Source: Promethearchaeota archaeon
Lineage (GTDB): Archaea > Asgardarchaeota > Lokiarchaeia > Sigyniarchaeales > SOKP01
DNA length: 64,000 nucleotides
NCBI GenBank assembly: GCA_048939015.1
Contig: JBHLPW010000019.1
Coordinates: 13,765-77,764 of the forward strand
Direction: 5' to 3'
Translations under genes and position numbers: made by a program
Shown here: piece by piece, positions 3,451 to 17,413 of the stretch
Numbering within the stretch: the stretch's first letter is position 1
Layout of the letters: each line of letters opens with the position of its first letter
The notes under the pieces: model-generated
What the model was told of the DNA's origin: nothing
What the model saw: the letters and a program-made list of their open reading frames with translations, nothing else
Database searches by the model: none

Positions 3451-5352
3451 TTATAAACTATAATACTCTATGATATTCAAATCAGTCTGATAAATTCCAT
3501 GATTTACAGTCTGATGATAATTATAGGGTATAATTTCTTCGGCTTTCTCAACTTTTAACTTAAGTTTTATTGAAGGCATCCAAAATGTTTTATTTATATG
3601 TTGATATTCAGCCATTACCATATAGAGAAATTTGCCTTTTTTCTTTGGAATGATTTTAGTTTTGATTTTAGTCATTTCATTAGCTTTTAACCTTTTAATC
3701 CTTGTATACTCTAGCTTAGATTCAAAAGAATCAGACATAAAGAAATATATCTTTATATCCTTAATTTCACTTAAGTTAGGGTTCTCAATTATAACCGAAA
3801 TATTTTCTGGATGATCTAGTTTGAGTTTTTTATTCTGTACGTTAAGATCTATAAAAATAGGATATGGTATAGTTTTTTCATCTAGATCAAAACTTATATC
3901 AATGAGTTTTTGAAGATAAGGTTTGAATTTTAAACCAAATTGATTTTTTTGTTCTTTTAAAGATAAATTTTGCTTATTTCTTAACTCTTCAAACTCTTGA
4001 AGCATATAATTAATACTTTTTAAGATAATTTTATCAAATTCTGAATGTTTGACAGAAATAATTGATTGAAATTTATCATAATATTCAGACTCAGAGTTTT
4101 GAAGTAATAGATTTTCAAAAATTTCCTTAATAAAGGATTCTAAGAGTTCATCTAATTGAACCAAATTCTTATGTTCACTATCAAATTTCTCTATAATTTT
4201 TTCGAAATGAGTAATGTCCTGTAAAAAATCGCTTAACGAATTTAATAATTCAACAGCTTCAGAGATATAGGCTTCAAAAGCCTTTGATATCATTGCTTCT
4301 AACAATATATTGAATTTTCTTAAATTTTTATTTTTATAATTAATAAATTCTGTGCGATAAGATTCTAAATAATTAATTAATTTTCCAGAATGTAATTTCA
4401 ATAAATTTCTTTGATATTTTTGATATTGTTCAGAAGCTCTTTTTATCCAATTCCCAACAGTGTTTAACTTTTCAAGATTGTTTTCTTTATTAAAAATAAT
4501 ACTCTCTTCCAAAGTATCTGTAGATAACAATGGACAGTCTATCTTTATTTTGTCTAATACTTCGAGTGTATTACGCTCTAGTCGGTAAATATTTTCTATT
4601 TGATTGTATAAATTAATTTTTTGAAAATTATCAGCTTTAACTTCAATTAATTTGTTAAGTAAACTCTCTAACTTGTCAGAATAATATTTAGGATTGTTAT
4701 TTAGAAGCTTTCTTAATATCGCAGCAAATTCAGTAAGAATGATATATATTTCCTTTTTCTCATATATTTGGTTATTATCATTCTCTAAATGAACAATATT
4801 ACAATAATCCACAATATTCTGATAATTTACTTCTACAAAATGGTAATAATTAGCACATCTCTCAGGATATACTGAATTTTTAGCTAAAAAACTATAATAT
4901 AAGCCAAGTAATGATTTATTGATAATATAAGAGTTATGTCTAAAATCTTCAAATTTCTTTTTAATTTTATTATCTTTGATATAAGGTATTAGATAGTATT
5001 CAATAATAACTTCTAAATTACCCGCAGAACGAATTGAATTAAAAAGTCTAAAAGGATTAATTTCTATGTCATCTAATTTAGTTATAATGAGATGTCTGTA
5101 TTCATTGAAATCTGAGTTAAGACTATAGAAATATGATTCAATTGAAGATTTTCTTCTTTCAAGTTCTGAATTTTTAACTGGTTTTTCATTTTTAGATAAG
5201 GAGAGGCTTAAAATTTCAGATAAATAATGTTTAAGAGAATAAACAGATTCCATATATAATGTTCTTGCTCCACAATAAGGACACTGAGTTTCTGAACCCT
5301 TTATAATAGGTAATCCGCTTCCGCATTTCTTGCAAGGCATAAATGAGTTCAT
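3451..5352 (-). CDS. Hypothetical protein: N-terminal Zn ribbon, long helical region, C-terminal Ig-like beta domain
   Basis: CKKC...CPYC; helical core; C-terminal beta pattern ISVIIENPNLSEIKDIKI...IIPKKKGKF. Confidence 0.6.
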   Translation of the reverse strand: MNSFMPCKKCGSGLPIIKGSETQCPYCGARTLYMESVYSLKHYLSEILSLSLSKNEKPVKNSELERRKSSIESYFYSLNSDFNEYRHLIITKLDDIEINPFRLFNSIRSAGNLEVIIEYYLIPYIKDNKIKKKFEDFRHNSYIINKSLLGLYYSFLAKNSVYPERCANYYHFVEVNYQNIVDYCNIVHLENDNNQIYEKKEIYIILTEFAAILRKLLNNNPKYYSDKLESLLNKLIEVKADNFQKINLYNQIENIYRLERNTLEVLDKIKIDCPLLSTDTLEESIIFNKENNLEKLNTVGNWIKRASEQYQKYQRNLLKLHSGKLINYLESYRTEFINYKNKNLRKFNILLEAMISKAFEAYISEAVELLNSLSDFLQDITHFEKIIEKFDSEHKNLVQLDELLESFIKEIFENLLLQNSESEYYDKFQSIISVKHSEFDKIILKSINYMLQEFEELRNKQNLSLKEQKNQFGLKFKPYLQKLIDISFDLDEKTIPYPIFIDLNVQNKKLKLDHPENISVIIENPNLSEIKDIKIYFFMSDSFESKLEYTRIKRLKANEMTKIKTKIIPKKKGKFLYMVMAEYQHINKTFWMPSIKLKLKVEKAEEIIPYNYHQTVNHGIYQTDLNIIEYYSL

Positions 5353-9671: not shown

Positions 9672-10349
9672 TTATTTTAGATTGAGTATACTCATTATAT
9701 CATCAAGATTAATTTCAGATAAATCCTTTATGATTAGCTGAGCTCCAGTCAATTCTTGCTTATTATGAGTAGTTGTAAGCGCAATCGATAGCATTCCTGC
9801 TCTTGTAGCAGCTTCTATACCTACAGGTGCATCTTCAATGACAAGACAATTTTCTGATTTTATGTTTAAAGTATTTGCAGCAATTGAAAAAACATCCGGT
9901 TCTGGTTTTCCTTTCTTAACGTCTGCTGCTGTCACAATAACATCAAATAAATCTTTAATTTTTAAACTATTTAAAAGAAGATCTACATTTTCAGCAGGTC
10001 CGCTTGACCCTACAGCTAATTTGAATCCCTTTAATTTTAAATCAGTTAAAATTTTGATAACTCCAGGTAATGGTTTTAATCTATCTCTTACCATTTCTCG
10101 ATAATTTTTTTCCTTAAATTCAGCCCACTTTTCAATTTGGACTTCATCTACTTTTGTACCTACTAATTTCCGAGTGATTGTGTGAGATTGTTGACCAAAT
10201 GTTAAATCAAAAAATTCTTTTGTAAATTCTATCCCAATTTCTTTTCCTAGTTTCACCCAACTCTCAAAATGAATAGGACCTGTATCAGCAAGTACACCAT
10301 CCATATCAAAAATAATACAATAATTAGAATTACTATGAGTAGAACTCAA
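9672..10349 (-). CDS. HAD-family phosphatase (beta-phosphoglucomutase-like)
   Basis: FDMDGVLAD, KGKPEPD, IEDAPVGI. Confidence 0.9.
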   Translation of the reverse strand: MSSTHSNSNYCIIFDMDGVLADTGPIHFESWVKLGKEIGIEFTKEFFDLTFGQQSHTITRKLVGTKVDEVQIEKWAEFKEKNYREMVRDRLKPLPGVIKILTDLKLKGFKLAVGSSGPAENVDLLLNSLKIKDLFDVIVTAADVKKGKPEPDVFSIAANTLNIKSENCLVIEDAPVGIEAATRAGMLSIALTTTHNKQELTGAQLIIKDLSEINLDDIMSILNLK

Positions 10350-10419: not shown

Positions 10420-13245
10420 TTAATCCTTGAAAATTATTTCCTTCCTCCAATACCACATAATACTAATTAAAGATATTAATGCGGTAGTAGTAAGAAAAAT
10501 GAGAAAAAGATCAAAACCAGGGATTACAGATTCGACGGTTTTTATAATGGTTACTTCAGAAAAACCTACATTTCCATTTGTATCACTCGCGTAAAATCGG
10601 AGATTATGAGTACCTCCGGGTAATATATCCCATAGTATTTGATCTATTTGTCCTGAGAGGCCACATGAATGATTTGTTATCCCACCATCAAGAGTATACC
10701 ATATCTCATCTAAAAAATCATCTATGGCAATAACATTAAATGATGGAGCTGTTACACTAAATTCTTCATTTTGATATGGTGAATTTATAATGATTATTGG
10801 ATTTATTTTATCCAACTTTACAGATACGTCATTAGATACTATTAAACCTGCTGAATCATTAATATAAAATGTAATGGTAACAGTATCACTAAGAATTAAA
10901 TCCCAGGCACCCTGATTAATAGTGCTATTAGAGATGAAGAAATATTTAGTTAGTAAAATGTCTAGAGTATACCACATAGAGTCTGGAACCCCAGTATCTA
11001 TTTCGATTATAAAGCCAGGTGCATTCCCTCCTATCATTTGGTTTGCTATAGGTGATATAATGGAAAACGCAGGAGGATCCCACCAGATTGGATAATCATC
11101 CTGTGTACCAGCATTACCTCCAATATTTGTATAAGGAGTGTCTCCAATCCCATCATCATTGGTATCATTACCAACATAATCATCCCAATAATTACCAATA
11201 ATTCCATTATCCCAAACGTTTAATATCCCATTATCTTCAGCATTCACTTGGTTCTCTGTAAAATTATTTCTATAAATTGTATTAAAATTAGTATCATCGT
11301 GCAGAAATATCCCAAACTCATCATTGAATTGAAAGTCATTATCAAAAATGTCATTATCATCACACCATGAAGATAAAAATATCCCACTATCCTTATTTTC
11401 AGAAACCTCATTATCTAAAATGGTATTTTCATTAGCATTTTCTAGACGAATTCCATGTTGCTCATTATTGGAAATATTATTTTTTGCTATATAATGGTAT
11501 AATCCTGTTACTTCTACTCCAGACGCTCGATTATGAGTAATATTGTTATATAATACCACATTCCCAGTATTTGCTATACTTAATCCACTATCAAAATTAT
11601 TTGATATTTTATTATTAGTAATATTATTATAATCTCCACTGACACGTATTCCCCAACGAATGTTATTTTCAAAAATATTTTCTGTAATAATATTTTCATC
11701 TCCATATGCAGATAGACCATTACTTCCGCATTTTGAAAAAGTACACCCTTTAATCAAATTAAATTTGCCATTATAGTAACTCATCCCATTATAATAGCAA
11801 TTTCTAATGTGACAGTAAAAAATCCTGTTATTACTACAATTATCAAAAGATAATCCATTTTGATTACTACTCGATGATATATTAGAAATCGTATTATTAT
11901 TACAGTTGTATGCCATAATTCCGGTATAGCAATTTGAAAGATTTAAATCCCTAATATATGATTTTTCGCATCCCACTAAAATTATCTGACCAGCATTTGT
12001 GAAATTCGAAGAGTTCAATCCCGTTTTTTTAGTATAAAAATACAGTGGTTTTTTATTTACTTTATTTGAAGTATCAATATTATTAAGATGAAGTTGTTTT
12101 GTAACTCCACCGATCCAATAGCCACAGTTAGACAATTTGTTATTTGTTAAATTACATCCTATGTCAAAATATAATGCAATCCCCGCGGAAGGATGATCAG
12201 ATACAATATTATTATTTACAGTTATATTTTTACTATAGCTTACATAAATTGCACTCCTTGTAAAATTTGAGTTTGTTATAGTATTATTTTTGCTTGAATC
12301 TACATAAATTCCTATATTACAATTTGATATGTTTAAATCTGATATCTGGGAATTATTACACTGTATCAGTAATACCTGACCCGCATTAGTAAAATTAACA
12401 GAATTTAAATTTGATTGATTATAATAGAAATAAAGAGATTTATTGTTTACTAAATTTGTGGTTTCTATTGTCGTAGTCTGAGCCCAAACGGGGAATCCCT
12501 CATCATAATAATAAGAAAATCCGCAATCATTTAGCATATTAGATGAAAAATTATTATTAACACCATTCATAATGAAAAGATAGATCCCTGAGCTATTATC
12601 TTGAAAATTGTTCGCATAAATCAAACTATTTGTGACGTCGTTAACCATTTCCAATCCATATCTATTATGTTTAAATGAATTTTCAGAAATAGTGTAATTA
12701 TCTCCCTGACTGATGCCTAATCCTACGTTATTTTCGATAAATTTATTCTGGGTAACAACAAAATCTTGACAATAACTAAAAGATACTCCATTTGAATTAT
12801 TCATGAAAGTATTATTAATGATTCTTCCATATGAATCCCAAATATCAAGTCCTTGACCAGCATTCATAAATGTACAATTTCGGATAATAAAATGTGCATT
12901 TGACTCCATAATCCAGATACATGCTTGTTGTTCATAACCAATCATTGTAATGTTTTCAATCACATATGGATCACTTATAGTTCCAGTTCCAGAACACCAA
13001 TCTTGAGTTGCAGCAGTTGACCAATTTATTGAACCTGGCCAATATGAGGGAGTATCATCAATAATTATGGTTGTATCCTTAAATACCCAGTATCCTGATC
13101 TTTTTAATTGAAAATGAGAAGTCTCTTCTGTAATCTTATCATTATTTAATATTTGTTTATGGAAATCGATTAGATATGTATTTATTAATAAAATTATGAA
13201 TCCAATCATTAAAACATAAATATGCCTTTTTTGCTTGGACTTCAT
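10420..13245 (-). CDS. Cell-surface right-handed beta-helix (NosD/CASH-like) protein with Ig-like domains and Loki-CTERM/PGF-type anchor
   Basis: N-terminal hydrophobic signal; many Asn-rich beta-helix turns; GNYWDDY...DDGIGD; two WYTLD Ig-like repeats; C-terminal IPGF + TM + RK. Confidence 0.88.
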   Translation of the reverse strand: MKSKQKRHIYVLMIGFIILLINTYLIDFHKQILNNDKITEETSHFQLKRSGYWVFKDTTIIIDDTPSYWPGSINWSTAATQDWCSGTGTISDPYVIENITMIGYEQQACIWIMESNAHFIIRNCTFMNAGQGLDIWDSYGRIINNTFMNNSNGVSFSYCQDFVVTQNKFIENNVGLGISQGDNYTISENSFKHNRYGLEMVNDVTNSLIYANNFQDNSSGIYLFIMNGVNNNFSSNMLNDCGFSYYYDEGFPVWAQTTTIETTNLVNNKSLYFYYNQSNLNSVNFTNAGQVLLIQCNNSQISDLNISNCNIGIYVDSSKNNTITNSNFTRSAIYVSYSKNITVNNNIVSDHPSAGIALYFDIGCNLTNNKLSNCGYWIGGVTKQLHLNNIDTSNKVNKKPLYFYTKKTGLNSSNFTNAGQIILVGCEKSYIRDLNLSNCYTGIMAYNCNNNTISNISSSSNQNGLSFDNCSNNRIFYCHIRNCYYNGMSYYNGKFNLIKGCTFSKCGSNGLSAYGDENIITENIFENNIRWGIRVSGDYNNITNNKISNNFDSGLSIANTGNVVLYNNITHNRASGVEVTGLYHYIAKNNISNNEQHGIRLENANENTILDNEVSENKDSGIFLSSWCDDNDIFDNDFQFNDEFGIFLHDDTNFNTIYRNNFTENQVNAEDNGILNVWDNGIIGNYWDDYVGNDTNDDGIGDTPYTNIGGNAGTQDDYPIWWDPPAFSIISPIANQMIGGNAPGFIIEIDTGVPDSMWYTLDILLTKYFFISNSTINQGAWDLILSDTVTITFYINDSAGLIVSNDVSVKLDKINPIIIINSPYQNEEFSVTAPSFNVIAIDDFLDEIWYTLDGGITNHSCGLSGQIDQILWDILPGGTHNLRFYASDTNGNVGFSEVTIIKTVESVIPGFDLFLIFLTTTALISLISIMWYWRKEIIFKD

Positions 13246-13433
13246 TTCAATATACCAACATTCCGTTAGTTAATTGTCATTTGGTTAATATCCTATTTAA
13301 TTGTTATGGATAATTGACTATAATGCAATAGTGGTATTTTGTCTAAATACAATTTAAAAATATCTTCGAATGGAGAATTTAAATATAAAAATGTCATAGT
13401 GGATATTATAAGATCTTAAAAAGCGAAATAATA

Positions 13434-16400
13434 ATGAAGGTAAAAAATAAAATCAAAGTCACATGTGTATCACTCGTAATTCTATCTGTTTTAAATATCT
13501 TCTCATATCAAATCTTCAATAATAGCACAAGTTCTAACAGATTTAGCGAAAAAAATGATAGTTTTGTTTTAAAAATTGCTAATTATTGGAATCTTACAGG
13601 AACACCAATTTATATAGATGATACAGCGGTTGGTACTTATGATTGGGCAACAATTAATGCAACCTACGATTGGTGTAAAGGTTCTGGGACTAAATCAGAT
13701 CCATATATTCTTGAGAATATTATTATTGATGGATTAAATACAGGAAACTGTATTGAGATATGGTATTCAAGCGTCTACTTCATTATTAAAAACTGTACCA
13801 TTTATAATTCTGGTGAATGGGATTGTGGTATGTATTTATATGACGTTTACAATGCCAAAATTCACAACAATACAGTTCATTCCAATTTTGAGGGTATCTT
13901 TTTCCAAGGAGATGGAGATTATAATAATGTTACTAACAATATCGTTAGAGATAATGGCCGTACAGGTATTGTTTTTGAATCCTTTAATGATTATTGTATA
14001 ATTCACAATAATACCGCAATTAATAATAATCAGCATGGAATTGTTCTAAGGCAAGAATGCATAAATAACACAATATCAAATAATTTTGTAAAAGATCATG
14101 TTTATAGCGGGATTCTTATTCAAGGAGGGAGTATTAACAATACTATTATTGAAAATACCGCAGTTAGAAATGCATTTGCAGGGATCTGGGTTTACAATAG
14201 TGATGATAATATCTTTAAAAGAAACAATTTCTCTAATAACATTGGATATGGCGTTGAAATTGAAGAAAGTAATACTAATAAGTTAATCGAGAATACAATT
14301 TATAATAATACTATTTATGGAATAGAATTTTCGTCATATGTATCTAATCGTGCTGAAAAAAATAAAATAATAAATAATAATGTTAGCAGCAATGGTATGG
14401 CAGGAGTTCACCTAGATGCGTATAGTATGAATAATTCAATTTTTCTAAATAATTTTATTGACAATAATATAAATGGTTATGATGAAGGTACCAATAATAC
14501 CAATAAATGGGATAATAGTATAATCGGAAACTATTGGGATGATTATCCAGGAGTAGATGACAATGATGATGGGATTGGAGATGCTCCATACGCAGATATA
14601 GGGGGGACAGTTGGCGCTCAAGACAACTTTCCTATTTGGTGGGATGCACCGAGGTTTTCCATTGTTTCACCATTATCAAGCGAGCAATTTGGGGATGTAG
14701 CTCCATCATATACCCTTTCATTGGATGGTGGATATAATGATACAATGTGGTACACATTAGACAATGGTATAACTAATCAAACCTTCACAGCTCTTATTGG
14801 AACAATAAATCAGAGTTTATGGAATAATACCGCAATAGGTTCTGTAACAATTAGATTTTATATGAGTGATATTCGAGGATTTACATCATATAAACAAGTT
14901 TTTATAGAAAAAATACGTTTTGAGACTTATTGGTATCTTGATCCTTTTGTAATCGATGATACGGGGGGAGGAGATTATACATGGATGGAAGCAGTCTCAC
15001 AAGATTGGTGTTCGGGAAATGGAACTTTAACGGATCCTTATATAATTGATTATATAAGAATTGACGGACAAAATTCAAGTAATTGTTTAACCATTCAAAA
15101 TTCGAATGCAACTTTTGTTATCAGCAATAGTTCTTTTTATTACTCAAGTGATGGAACCTTTGATGGAGGAATTGTACTAGATCATGTAATGAATGGATTA
15201 ATTATCGATTGCAATTCTTCATTCAATAAAGGGAATGGTATTGTTTTGAGTTATTGTCAATATATTATTATAACAAGAAACTCAATAAATTCAAATAATA
15301 AAAGCGGGATTTTTCTTTTCTATAGTGACCATAATTTGATTTTTAATAACGTTGAAACCATTAATAATAACACAATTAATGGAATCCTATTACTGTATAG
15401 TGATTACAATAATATTACCAATAACATTATTAATAACAATGCTGTGGGGGTATATATTCAAGAATCGAATTATAATAATATTACTGATAATGATCTTATT
15501 AATAATCTTATACCTTATAATCTTATAAGTGGATTAGAAAATATAATAGAAGATTTTTCATTTCCAAAGGGACCAGGAGGTAAATTCCCTTTTGAGATTA
15601 TTTTAATAATTCTGATTATTGCAATAAGTGCTATTGGAATTACAGGTAGTGCCTTAATCATAAAAAAGAGAAGATCATTTGCGGGAGTTAAGAAAAAAGA
15701 AATAAGTGAGAAAAAAAGGGAAAAAATAAGAAAAAAACTTGAAACTAAATTAGAATTTGCAGATTATCTCATAAGAGAAAGGCAAATTGATTTAGCGTAC
15801 AAAAACTTAGGAAAAATTCAAGATATAGCGGATATGTATGATTTTTTTGATATTTTTAATAAAGCTATTGAAAGAGTGGAACAATGTAAAGAAATCCAAG
15901 GAATTGCTAAACCCATTATAAGTGAAGAGATTAGTAAAACTGAAAAAAGAATGAAAGAAGAGACTATAGTTCCTCCTATGATAACAAGAGACGAAGAAAA
16001 GAAATATAATCTATTTATTAGTTATTCTACTGTTGACAGGGATTATTTTCAAATAAAAAAAATAGTAAAAGAACTAAAAAAGTTTCCAAAAATCAACCAA
16101 GTTTCATATTGGGAAAGAGACAGCAAAGCAAACATTGTAGAGTTCATGGATGAAACGTTAGAAGTAAGCAATACTTTCTTACTCTTTTGCAGTGAAAATT
16201 CGATAAAATCTAATGCCGTAAAAGATGAATGGCAAGCAGCCTTCCAAATGAGAAAACAAGGTTTAATTAAACTGATTCCGATATATGAAGAACAAAAACA
16301 CATTCCAAAAATACTATGGCACCTACTCAATGTCAAATATGAAAAAGACAATTTTAAGGGCTTTATTGAAAATCTCTATAAGGAAATTTTAAGAGAATAA
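13434..16400 (+). CDS. Single-pass membrane protein: extracellular beta-helix/Ig-like domains, TM, cytoplasmic helical linker and TIR domain
   Basis: Signal-like N-terminus; two beta-helix modules; TM at ~15585-15662 followed by KKRR; C-terminal LFISYS...FLLFCSENSIKSNAVKDEWQAA...LIPI (TIR_2-like, ~16005-16397). Confidence 0.88.
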   Translation: MKVKNKIKVTCVSLVILSVLNIFSYQIFNNSTSSNRFSEKNDSFVLKIANYWNLTGTPIYIDDTAVGTYDWATINATYDWCKGSGTKSDPYILENIIIDGLNTGNCIEIWYSSVYFIIKNCTIYNSGEWDCGMYLYDVYNAKIHNNTVHSNFEGIFFQGDGDYNNVTNNIVRDNGRTGIVFESFNDYCIIHNNTAINNNQHGIVLRQECINNTISNNFVKDHVYSGILIQGGSINNTIIENTAVRNAFAGIWVYNSDDNIFKRNNFSNNIGYGVEIEESNTNKLIENTIYNNTIYGIEFSSYVSNRAEKNKIINNNVSSNGMAGVHLDAYSMNNSIFLNNFIDNNINGYDEGTNNTNKWDNSIIGNYWDDYPGVDDNDDGIGDAPYADIGGTVGAQDNFPIWWDAPRFSIVSPLSSEQFGDVAPSYTLSLDGGYNDTMWYTLDNGITNQTFTALIGTINQSLWNNTAIGSVTIRFYMSDIRGFTSYKQVFIEKIRFETYWYLDPFVIDDTGGGDYTWMEAVSQDWCSGNGTLTDPYIIDYIRIDGQNSSNCLTIQNSNATFVISNSSFYYSSDGTFDGGIVLDHVMNGLIIDCNSSFNKGNGIVLSYCQYIIITRNSINSNNKSGIFLFYSDHNLIFNNVETINNNTINGILLLYSDYNNITNNIINNNAVGVYIQESNYNNITDNDLINNLIPYNLISGLENIIEDFSFPKGPGGKFPFEIILIILIIAISAIGITGSALIIKKRRSFAGVKKKEISEKKREKIRKKLETKLEFADYLIRERQIDLAYKNLGKIQDIADMYDFFDIFNKAIERVEQCKEIQGIAKPIISEEISKTEKRMKEETIVPPMITRDEEKKYNLFISYSTVDRDYFQIKKIVKELKKFPKINQVSYWERDSKANIVEFMDETLEVSNTFLLFCSENSIKSNAVKDEWQAAFQMRKQGLIKLIPIYEEQKHIPKILWHLLNVKYEKDNFKGFIENLYKEILRE

Positions 16401-16534: not shown

Positions 16535-16609
16535 GGCCCGGTAGTCTAGTATGGATAGGGCGCTGGCTTGCGGAGCCAGATATCGAGGGTTCAAATCCCC
16601 CCCGGGCCA
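16535..16609 (+). tRNA. tRNA-Arg (anticodon GCG)
   Basis: Acceptor stem GGCCCGG/CCGGGCC-A; anticodon arm CTGGC-TT-GCG-GA-GCCAG; T arm GAGGG-TTCAAAT-CCCCC; no intron. Confidence 0.95.
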
Positions 16610-16642: not shown

Positions 16643-17413
16643 CTATTCAATATATTTTAAAATTTCTGAAATATTACTGATCTTCCTAAGATTTAATACA
16701 TCAATTTCTTTTTCAAAAGGAAATTTATATTTTCTCTCTAATAAAATTGATTGTAAGTTCGCTCTTTGAGCTCCAATTATATCAGCATATTCATCTCCAC
16801 ATACTAAAACTGAATTAGGAAATTTTTCTAGCCCTATTTTCTTAACTGTATGAAAAAAAATACTTGGATCTGGTTTTCTTTTTCCAAATTTAGCGGATGT
16901 AGTTATATAGTTAAAATATTTTAATAAATCATGTTTTTTTAGCACATTTTTTATTGTTTTATGATTTGGATGATTAGAGATTAAGGCAATTTTTAGATTT
17001 CTGATAGTTAATTCAGCTAATGTCTCTTTAGTGTTTTCAAAGGGTTCCCATTGTTCCTCTTCACAGGAATGATATAATTCGGCTAATTCTTCATAGGCTA
17101 TATCAGTTAACAAATCTAAATTTTTAATAATTTCCTCCTTTTCAAGTGATTCTAGAACGTCTTGAAAGATCATACTCGTAGGAAATTCATTTTTTGTTTT
17201 AATGCTTTTTCTAAAGAAATATTGCCTTTGTTTACTAAATTTATTTATGAAAGCTTCATTTGTCAAAGTTTCATTCCAAACTTGTTTCTCTTTTAAAACC
17301 CAGATTGATTTTAGTAATCCTTTCTTAAAACATTCATAATACTTCTCAACAGAAGGATTATCAAAATAAAATAATGTAAAGCCAAAATCAAAAATTACTC
17401 CTTTAATCACCAT
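16643..17413 (-). CDS. HAD-family hydrolase
   Basis: FDFGFTL, ISN, KPDPSIF, GDEYADIIGA. Confidence 0.85.
   Translation of the reverse strand: MVIKGVIFDFGFTLFYFDNPSVEKYYECFKKGLLKSIWVLKEKQVWNETLTNEAFINKFSKQRQYFFRKSIKTKNEFPTSMIFQDVLESLEKEEIIKNLDLLTDIAYEELAELYHSCEEEQWEPFENTKETLAELTIRNLKIALISNHPNHKTIKNVLKKHDLLKYFNYITTSAKFGKRKPDPSIFFHTVKKIGLEKFPNSVLVCGDEYADIIGAQRANLQSILLERKYKFPFEKEIDVLNLRKISNISEILKYIE

What the first reader, a model, noticed from the sequence alone, without database searches (positions are those of the whole stretch)
10420..16400. Head-to-head paralogous pair: anchored beta-helix protein and beta-helix-TIR receptor built from shared modules
Seen: the two genes diverge across 188 bp and share closely similar blocks. 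The cap is IIIDDT...QDWCSGTGTISDPYVIENI vs IYIDDT...YDWCKGSGTKSDPYILENI, and it recurs inside the TIR protein as VIDDT...QDWCSGNGTLTDPYIIDYI. The end block is WDNGIIGNYWDDYVGNDTNDDGIGDTPY...PIWWD vs WDNSIIGNYWDDYPGVDDNDDGIGDAPY...PIWWD, with a DxNDDG possible Ca-binding loop. One protein ends in a PGF/Loki-CTERM-type anchor with no cytoplasmic domain; the other ends in TM-TIR. Inference: a co-regulated receptor plus co-receptor or decoy (like CD14 or plant receptor-like proteins), with conserved junction blocks that could support ectodomain shuffling.
Basis: partly seen in the sequence, partly recalled or inferred. Interest (0 to 1): 0.7.

Follow-up and report, generated by a model that had tools for sequence, protein, structure and literature searches.

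The report
Asgard TIR receptor with swappable outside
An Asgard archaeon has a surface receptor built like an animal Toll-like receptor whose outer part has been swapped between species, and the anchored look-alike gene beside it travels with one version of that outer part but is not needed by the others.

Summary
The two genes, the 188-bp head-to-head gap and the shared blocks are real. The blocks are not pair-specific: the cap is in 38 and the end block in 21 ORFs of this genome, and the end block is the NosD-type helix terminus. Gene B (signal, beta-helix, Ig, beta-helix, TM, TIR with catalytic E932) sits at a hypervariable site. Of 35 same-genus genomes with both flanking genes, 3 carry the A+B pair, 4 carry a receptor with the same TIR but another, longer ectodomain and no A, and 28 carry no family gene. 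TIRs are 82-98% identical across the two classes, ectodomains 48-54%; reciprocal AU tests and a breakpoint test show recombination in the cytoplasmic linker. So ectodomain exchange is shown. The co-receptor role of A is not: an A-like protein stands alone elsewhere, only 2 of 31 other TIR receptors have a head-to-head partner (both orthologues of this pair), and the variable patches of A and B have discordant histories. The scan has noted this receptor family before on other DNA; I found no paper on it. New here: two allele classes on one locus-fixed TIR.

The parts
10420..13245 (-). Gene A, 941 aa: N-terminal hydrophobic helix, cap, long beta-helix, end block, two Ig-like domains, C-terminal anchor; no cytoplasmic domain; 31 N-glycosylation sequons
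12847..13077 (-). A cap module (res 57-133), N-terminal cap of the beta-helix; family-wide (52 copies in 38 ORFs of the genome)
11263..12846 (-). A beta-helix rod (res 134-661); fastest-changing part (51-65% aa between orthologues, dN/dS 0.29-0.37); 11280-12177 is a patch where G046 and G005 agree (80-81% nt) against this genome (60-67%)
11077..11262 (-). A end block (res 662-723), NosD-type C-terminal cap with the DxNDDG loop
10537..11076 (-). A two Ig-like domains (res 724-903); low model confidence
10420..10524 (-). A C-terminal IPGF-helix-basic anchor, Loki-CTERM-like (18.6 bits, cut-off 19.9)
13246..13433 (.). 188-bp gap: two conserved gene-proximal blocks with a variable middle; TATA-like boxes near 13295-13302 (minus strand, for A) and 13378-13385 (plus strand, for B); the B-side box is also kept in the A-less alleles. 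The archaeal TATA consensus is recalled, not from a call
13434..16400 (+). Gene B, 988 aa single-pass TIR receptor; 29 sequons, none after the TM helix
13596..14912 (+). B distal unit: cap1, beta-helix 1, end block, Ig-like (res 55-493); a stand-alone anchored protein of this same unit (545 aa, 51-57%) occurs in G013 without TIR or A
14931..15557 (+). B proximal unit: cap2 + beta-helix 2 (res 500-708); defines the allele class
15591..15671 (+). B transmembrane helix (res 720-746)
15672..16004 (+). B cytoplasmic three-helix bundle (res 759-823) and low-confidence linker; holds the recombination zone (res 756-839) between ectodomain class and TIR
16005..16394 (+). TIR domain (res 858-987), catalytic-position Glu E932 (codon 16227-16229); dN/dS 0.06-0.09
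16535..16609 (+). tRNA-Arg(GCG), right border of the variable site
9672..10349 (-). HAD hydrolase gene, left anchor of the site
16643..17413 (-). HAD hydrolase gene, right anchor of the site

Best explanation
B is an outside-in receptor of a Lokiarchaeia family. Its glycosylated beta-helix rods bind an outside polymer or surface (glycan most likely; inferred from fold). Binding clusters the receptors, the TIRs self-associate and cleave NAD+ to a small signal (inferred), which may be read in trans by a RelA-TPR-SLOG protein encoded elsewhere (inferred from co-occurrence). The site between the two HAD genes keeps one TIR while the outside part is exchanged by recombination (shown). One allele class is the block A + gap + B ectodomain + TM; the other is a long ectodomain alone. 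A is an anchored member of the same surface family that is inherited with this block by linkage (shown) and probably made at the same time, but acts as its own surface binder and is not a required partner of the TIR (inferred).
For: Architecture: (pLDDT 83.5), sequons only outside. E932 aligns with the Glu of Cat1 TIR (weak: E 0.038); 51 of 53 TIR copies keep it; TIR dN/dS 0.06-0.09. Folds nearest to alginate epimerases, PL6 lyases, NosD, tailspikes. Locus states in 35 genomes with both flanks: 3 pair, 4 solo, 5 other cargo, 23 short gap (my count; loci read in 19, 26, 29). Proximal ectodomain 74-95% aa within class, 48-54% between; TIR 82-98% across classes. G005 sides with this genome 211:85 left of res 836 and with solo G066 67:6 right of it, 0 of 1000 permutations. 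AU: ectodomain rejects {G005,G066,G045}, p 9e-53; TIR rejects {G000,G046,G005}, p 0.0014. A not required: 4 solo alleles; A-like P0126 alone in L091/L092; 2 of 31 long TIR genes with a known 5' neighbour are head-to-head with a family gene. A rod patch groups G046+G005, B helix-1 patch groups G000+G046. RelA-TPR-SLOG close orthologue in 12 of 54 genomes, all 12 among the 19 with this TIR tail.
Against: A orthologues were found only where B-class ectodomains are (3 of 154 genomes of the order; only the top 8 and 11 candidates per genome were scored), and both genes stayed intact under dN/dS below 1 through 37-41% divergence of A, which fits a joint function as well as linkage. G046, a pair genome 97% complete, had no match to the SLOG protein. 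The solo state of G051 and G066 is pieced together from two contigs each, and the G047 TIR is broken. All are metagenome assemblies; chimeric contigs were not excluded by reads. Kin are not independent, so the co-occurrence count overstates. No ligand, activity or expression was measured.
Confidence: 0.55

Rival explanations
1. One reading: A is an accessory co-receptor, ligand concentrator or decoy that makes up for B's short ectodomain. The long solo alleles would carry the extra binding units in one chain.
For: A and the B-class ectodomain occur together in 3 of 3 genomes. B-class receptors are 979-989 aa, while the two complete solo alleles are 1679 and 2206 aa with 4 and 8 caps. A B-like protein (P0006) and an A-like protein (P0125) both list a longest contig of 12822 bases, perhaps a fourth pair; adjacency not shown. 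A and B are each other's best in-genome match for the end block, by a small margin.
Against: Co-occurrence of neighbours follows from linkage. The variable rods change out of step. A-like P0126 has no B. Pairing is not a family rule. A head-to-head family pair with no TIR also exists (L125).
Confidence: 0.22
2. Kin recognition: A is a surface tag and B reads the matching tag on a neighbouring cell, as in the Dictyostelium tgr locus.
For: Same gross layout: a tightly linked divergent pair of polymorphic surface genes, one with a signalling tail; PMC5288501 (passages read) describes the tgr genes as tightly linked with a 523-bp common promoter. Mosaic rods and allele classes that cut across the species tree fit selection for variety.
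Against: A tag-reader pair should change in step. Here G000 and G046 share B helix 1 (81% aa) but not the A rod (55%), and G046 and G005 share part of the A rod but not B helix 1 (51%). Solo alleles have no tag beside them. Most genomes have neither gene.
Confidence: 0.1
3. Different output for B (a separate axis from the role of A): the TIR drains NAD+ directly to stop growth, or serves as a docking scaffold, with no diffusible signal and no SLOG reader.
For: Nearest solved sequence is Cat1, a filament-forming TIR (E 0.038). 7 of 19 genomes with the TIR tail had no close SLOG orthologue, G046 among them. No effector gene lies beside B.
Against: 0 of 35 genomes without the tail have the close orthologue; it lies next to a TIR receptor gene in several fetched loci; six such receptors per genome suit a shared signal.
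Confidence: 0.3
4. Pure accident: two unrelated family members that happen to be neighbours, with no selection on the arrangement.
For: 44 family ORFs in the genome, often adjacent; the site takes unrelated cargo in other genomes.
Against: Arrangement, gap length (172-188 bp) and both reading frames are kept in three species from two flank clades.
Confidence: 0.13

Closest known systems
Animal Toll-like receptors and IL-1R family
   Same: Single-span receptor with solenoid or Ig ectodomain and cytoplasmic TIR (PMC7075850, passages).
   Different: Ectodomain is beta-helix, not LRR; no Box 2 RDxxPG or Box 3 FW motif in the B TIR (sequence); B keeps the NADase Glu, while animal TLR TIRs are non-enzymatic (PMC11249213, passages). 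An analogue in layout, not shown to be an ancestor.
Thoeris (ThsB TIR + SLOG or other effector)
   Same: Catalytic-type prokaryotic TIR; a SLOG-bearing protein co-occurs in the genome.
   Different: TIR is the tail of a surface receptor; no effector in the operon; ThsB_TIR score 20.5 is under its cut-off of 21.2; no Thoeris model in PADLOC hit.
NosD / CASH beta-helix proteins (PDB 7o0y), AlgE4/AlgG epimerases
   Same: Right-handed beta-helix; the GNYW..D.DG.GD end block aligns to NosD 296-371.
   Different: Far below the NosD cut-off (92-115 bits against 300); no nos genes beside them; fused to Ig-like domains and to anchors or signalling tails.
Head-to-head plant NLR pairs (CHS3/CSA1)
   Same: Divergent pair, allele classes with different sensor content kept side by side (10.1101/2022.05.10.491418, abstract and outline).
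   Different: Those are cytosolic, co-evolve within clades and need each other; here A is dispensable for the other allele class and the rods change out of step.
Dictyostelium tgrB1/tgrC1 locus
   Same: Tightly linked polymorphic surface pair with a shared promoter region (PMC5288501, passages).
   Different: No matched change of A and B; no TIR in Tgr proteins (recalled).
CD14 / plant receptor-like proteins
   Same: Anchored ectodomain with no cytoplasmic domain beside a signalling receptor (recalled).
   Different: No binding or dependence shown; in this genome anchored tail-less members are the commonest form of the family.

Membership tests
TIR domain (Pfam TIR_2) | Score above curated cut-off and TIR fold | tested here: met
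   50.7 bits against 28; five-strand alpha/beta order in the model; atlas structure rows all TIR_2 (93)
NADase-type TIR | Catalytic Glu after beta-C | tested here: met
   E932; 51 of 53 copies
NADase-type TIR | Measured NAD+ cleavage | not testable with these tools
   needs an assay
Toll-like receptor | Single-span ectodomain-TM-TIR order | tested here: met
Toll-like receptor | LRR ectodomain | tested here: not met
   NosD/Beta_helix, no LRR hit
Toll-like receptor | Box 2 / Box 3 TIR motifs | tested here: not met
   absent by inspection of the translation against the motifs given in PMC7075850
Thoeris | TIR gene in an operon with an effector gene | tested here: not met
   neighbours are A, tRNA-Arg and HAD genes; SLOG protein is on another contig
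Thoeris | Match to Thoeris models | tested here: not met
   ThsB_TIR 20.5 under 21.2; PADLOC only PDC-S66 at E 0.0023
Thoeris | Antiviral defence through a TIR-made signal | not testable with these tools
   needs infection or heterologous assay
NosD (copper-binding maturation factor) | TIGR04247 cut-off and nos gene context | tested here: not met
   no nos neighbours
Loki-CTERM anchored protein (gene A) | NF033507 above cut-off at the C-terminus | tested here: inconclusive
   18.6 and 17.8 bits (A and G005 orthologue) against 19.9; no hit for the G046 orthologue
Obligate receptor / co-receptor pair | Conserved linkage | tested here: met
   3 of 3 genomes with the B-class ectodomain
Obligate receptor / co-receptor pair | Neither partner occurs alone | tested here: not met
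   4 solo alleles with the same TIR; A-like P0126 alone; B distal unit alone in G013
Obligate receptor / co-receptor pair | Matched change of the variable surfaces | tested here: not met
   discordant patches, n = 3 genomes
Obligate receptor / co-receptor pair | Physical binding and co-expression | not testable with these tools
   needs bench and RNA data

The most novel reading that the evidence does not exclude
A polymorphic immune or self-recognition locus in an Asgard archaeon: a Toll-like-shaped, NAD-cleaving receptor whose sensor comes in exchangeable allele classes kept across species, one class being a two-gene receptor/co-receptor (or tag/reader) cassette and the other a single long chain, all feeding one TIR signal read by a SLOG protein. 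This would be the first paired surface TIR receptor system in a prokaryote.
Probability: 0.2. Interest if true: 0.9.

Novelty: new variant of a known kind. Interest (0 to 1): 0.6.

Why it matters
Known prokaryotic TIR systems sense inside the cell. A single-span surface receptor with an enzyme-type TIR, in the archaeal lineage closest to eukaryotes, shows that the Toll-like layout can be reached from prokaryotic parts. This locus adds direct sequence evidence that the outside part is exchanged on a fixed TIR across species, the pattern seen at immune and recognition loci. It gives a ready test set: two natural ectodomain classes, with and without the partner gene, on TIRs that are up to 98% identical.

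Tried and rejected
Complex prediction of B 50-708 with A 572-905 gave no answer (scores 0.02, 0.01; mark 0.32); the N-terminal half of A was left out for size; not counted for or against binding. Sequencing-run search: no RNA holder listed, so co-expression is untested; two rows with a 0.06 share are no evidence. No read-level check of the assembly or of strain variants was obtained. Sigma-70 promoter scan (62 sites against 48 +/- 6.8 in shuffles) does not suit archaea and was set aside. Gene conversion between A and B: rejected. Classic tRNA-integrated island: not supported, as the genes lie 5' of the tRNA, G+C is 29.4-29.6% against 29.8% for the genome, and no ORF lies between B and the right HAD gene. 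NosD function: rejected. Ca/metal binding by the DxNDDG loop: not tested; one paper search found nothing. Accession look-up to place P0006 and P0125 on one contig returned no accessions. Atlas feature hits were all under 0.9 and are leads only. An IQ-TREE flank tree timed out; FastTree was used, with weak deep support. Paper searches without a description of Asgard ectodomain-TM-TIR receptors; the library lacks most subscription papers, bioRxiv supplements are closed, and I did not open the supplements of PMC13700489 or PMC7075850, where such proteins could be listed.

Full report
Observation. Genes A (10420-13245, minus, 941 aa) and B (13434-16400, plus, 988 aa) diverge across 188 bp. Both are NosD/Beta_helix proteins and B ends in TIR_2. 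With profiles built from the genome's own ORFs, A reads cap, helix, end, Ig, Ig, anchor and B reads cap, helix, end, Ig, cap, helix, TM, helical bundle, TIR. AlphaFold2 models agree (B mean pLDDT 83.5; A 76.3, with the C-terminal third poorly modelled). All 29 sequons of B lie before the TM helix. Source names of close relatives say Lokiarchaeia or Promethearchaeota.

The shared blocks are family parts. The cap is in 38 ORFs (52 copies), the end block in 21 (29 copies), the Ig-like unit in 18 (54 copies) of this genome. The end block aligns to the C-terminal part of bacterial NosD. A-B identity is 65% for the end block (18 of 395 between-gene pairs reach it) and 48% for the first cap (216 of 1255). 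Orthologous blocks are closer (67-85%) than the A-B paralogues (about 62%), so there is no ongoing conversion. The same ectodomain parts carry other tails in this genome: six end in TM-TIR, others in Zn-ribbon-like or WD40-like tails (read from the C-terminal sequence, not scanned), and most end in a bare anchor. Of 10 adjacent family pairs, 9 are tandem and this one is head-to-head.

Synteny. The pair lies between two HAD genes, with tRNA-Arg(GCG) after B. Of 54 genomes of the genus, 35 matched both HAD genes. By my count from those coordinates: 3 have the pair (this one, G005, G046), 4 have one TIR receptor and no A (G045, G047, and G051 and G066, each pieced from two contigs), 5 have unrelated cargo, and 23 have a gap under 700 bp. 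I read the ORFs of all 12 occupied sites and of 11 of the 23 short ones. The closest relative by flanks, G020, is empty. A orthologues passed E 1e-60 in 3 of 154 genomes of the order, plus one 39% relative with no B; only the 8 best candidates per genome were scored. B's distal unit occurs as a stand-alone anchored 545-aa protein in G013. Among 80 metagenome loci, a full-length 50% A-like protein stands without B on two contigs, one locus repeats the G005 layout (probably the same source, not independent), and one other head-to-head family pair has no TIR. Among 35 long TIR genes in 60 loci fetched from relatives, 31 have a known 5' neighbour and 2 are head-to-head with a family gene, both orthologues of this pair.

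Ectodomain exchange. The membrane-proximal ectodomain is 74-95% identical within the pair class or the solo class and 48-54% between them, while intact TIRs at the site are 82-98% identical across classes and 52-68% to TIRs at other sites. G005, a pair genome, is sister to solo G045 by flanks (support 0.89). Its B gene sides with this genome at 211 of 296 informative sites left of residue 836 and with solo G066 at 67 of 73 to the right; 0 of 1000 permutations reach this; other triplets put the break at 756-839. Its TIR is 97% identical in DNA to that of G066, above the 83-87% of the flanking genes, so the latest event may be a transfer of the TIR side. Reciprocal AU tests reject each part's tree on the other part (p 9e-53 and 0.0014; 10 rows; the groups were named, so the p values are optimistic). 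G051, far away by flanks, has a solo ectodomain 81-82% like the others. Within the pair class the rods are patchwork: window 11280-12177 of A groups G046 with G005, helix 1 of B groups this genome with G046. All modules show dN/dS under 1: TIR 0.06-0.09, Ig domains and end blocks 0.10-0.20, A rod 0.29-0.37.

Gap. Three pair alleles keep about 55 nt next to A and about 60 nt next to B, with a variable middle; each block has a TATA-like box about 50 nt before the start codon, and the B-side box is kept in solo alleles. This fits two back-to-back promoters. Co-expression is untested.

Mechanism. Shown: architecture, catalytic-position Glu (E932; 51 of 53 copies; PMC7075850 passages tie this Glu to NADase activity but note it is not sufficient proof), exchange of the outside part, linkage of A to one class. 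Inferred: glycan or surface binding (nearest folds are alginate epimerases, PL6 lyases, NosD and tailspikes at 8-19% identity), clustering-driven TIR activation (established for TIR enzymes, recalled), and a reader in trans. Following an earlier scan note, I tested the RelA-TPR-SLOG protein: domains confirmed, SLOG just under its cut-off; a close orthologue is in 12 of 54 genomes, all within the 19 that have this TIR tail, but not found in G046. Kin are not independent.

Role of A. For a partner role: it is found with the B-class ectodomain in 3 of 3 genomes and stays intact. Against: linkage alone explains this; the TIR works with other ectodomains and no A; A-like proteins stand alone; the variable patches do not change together. 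I put an independent, linked surface binder at 0.55, an accessory co-receptor or decoy at 0.22, a kin tag at 0.1 and chance at 0.13.

Known systems. It works like a Toll-like receptor in layout but fails membership (no LRR, no Box 2/3). It resembles Thoeris in chemistry but fails on operon and model match; the 2025 Thoeris survey mentions TM helices only in effectors in the passages I saw (10.64898/2025.12.03.692087). PMC11249213, 10.1101/2024.10.26.620412 and PMC13700489 (passages) treat Asgard defence without such receptors. Eight searches found no description; the library is partial and supplements were not read. The scan itself has noted this family several times on other DNA; those notes are not independent support.

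Verdict. A real, conserved but optional pair at a variable TIR-receptor locus. The shuffling claim holds; the co-receptor claim is open and less likely than not. Interest 0.6; new variant of a known kind.

Noticed in passing
L033:2161-2886, L034:2081-3850, L076:3088-4857 (same site in G024, G011, G043): LAGLIDADG endonuclease genes sit between the two HAD genes (Pfam on the first two); a radical SAM gene (G054) and a Tyr/Trp-type tRNA synthetase gene (G065) occupy the site elsewhere, so it is a general insertion hot spot.
   Followed up: partly
L031:11044-16622 (G005): After B come tRNA-Arg, a duplicated 3' piece of the right HAD gene, an SBP_bac_3 histidine kinase and then the full HAD gene: looks like an insertion with target duplication. 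The kinase also follows the solo receptor in G045 and G066.
   Followed up: partly
L048:1-1995 and L070:13613-16183: The RelA-TPR-SLOG gene is 98% identical in DNA between G005 and G045 while housekeeping genes are 87-91%; G066 and G047 copies are 97-98% in protein. Suggests a recent sweep or transfer, like the TIR tail.
   Followed up: partly
L039/L040 (G024:C34:69600-90100): Five TIR receptor genes with different ectodomains in one array, ending at the RelA-TPR-SLOG gene.
   Followed up: no
G000:C6:26287-28440 (L177); L038, L041: An LRR + PCI protein lies tail-to-tail with a TIR receptor gene in three genomes.
   Followed up: no
G000:C21:52411-53991 (L176): A 526-aa protein with no Pfam hit, very conserved (44 of 54 genomes), often directly downstream of a TIR receptor gene.
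   Followed up: partly
G000:C94:11339-16105 and C21:54098-58825: Two TIR receptor genes of this genome appear split into two ORFs each (15 and 57 bp apart); the G047 receptor at this site is broken inside the TIR (L059).
   Followed up: no
P0006: A B-class protein (70%) that ends just after the TM helix with no TIR; natural tail-less form or truncation not resolved.
   Followed up: partly
window 3451-5352: 633-aa protein with an N-terminal Zn ribbon and no other Pfam hit, conserved in order next to gltX in relatives.
   Followed up: no
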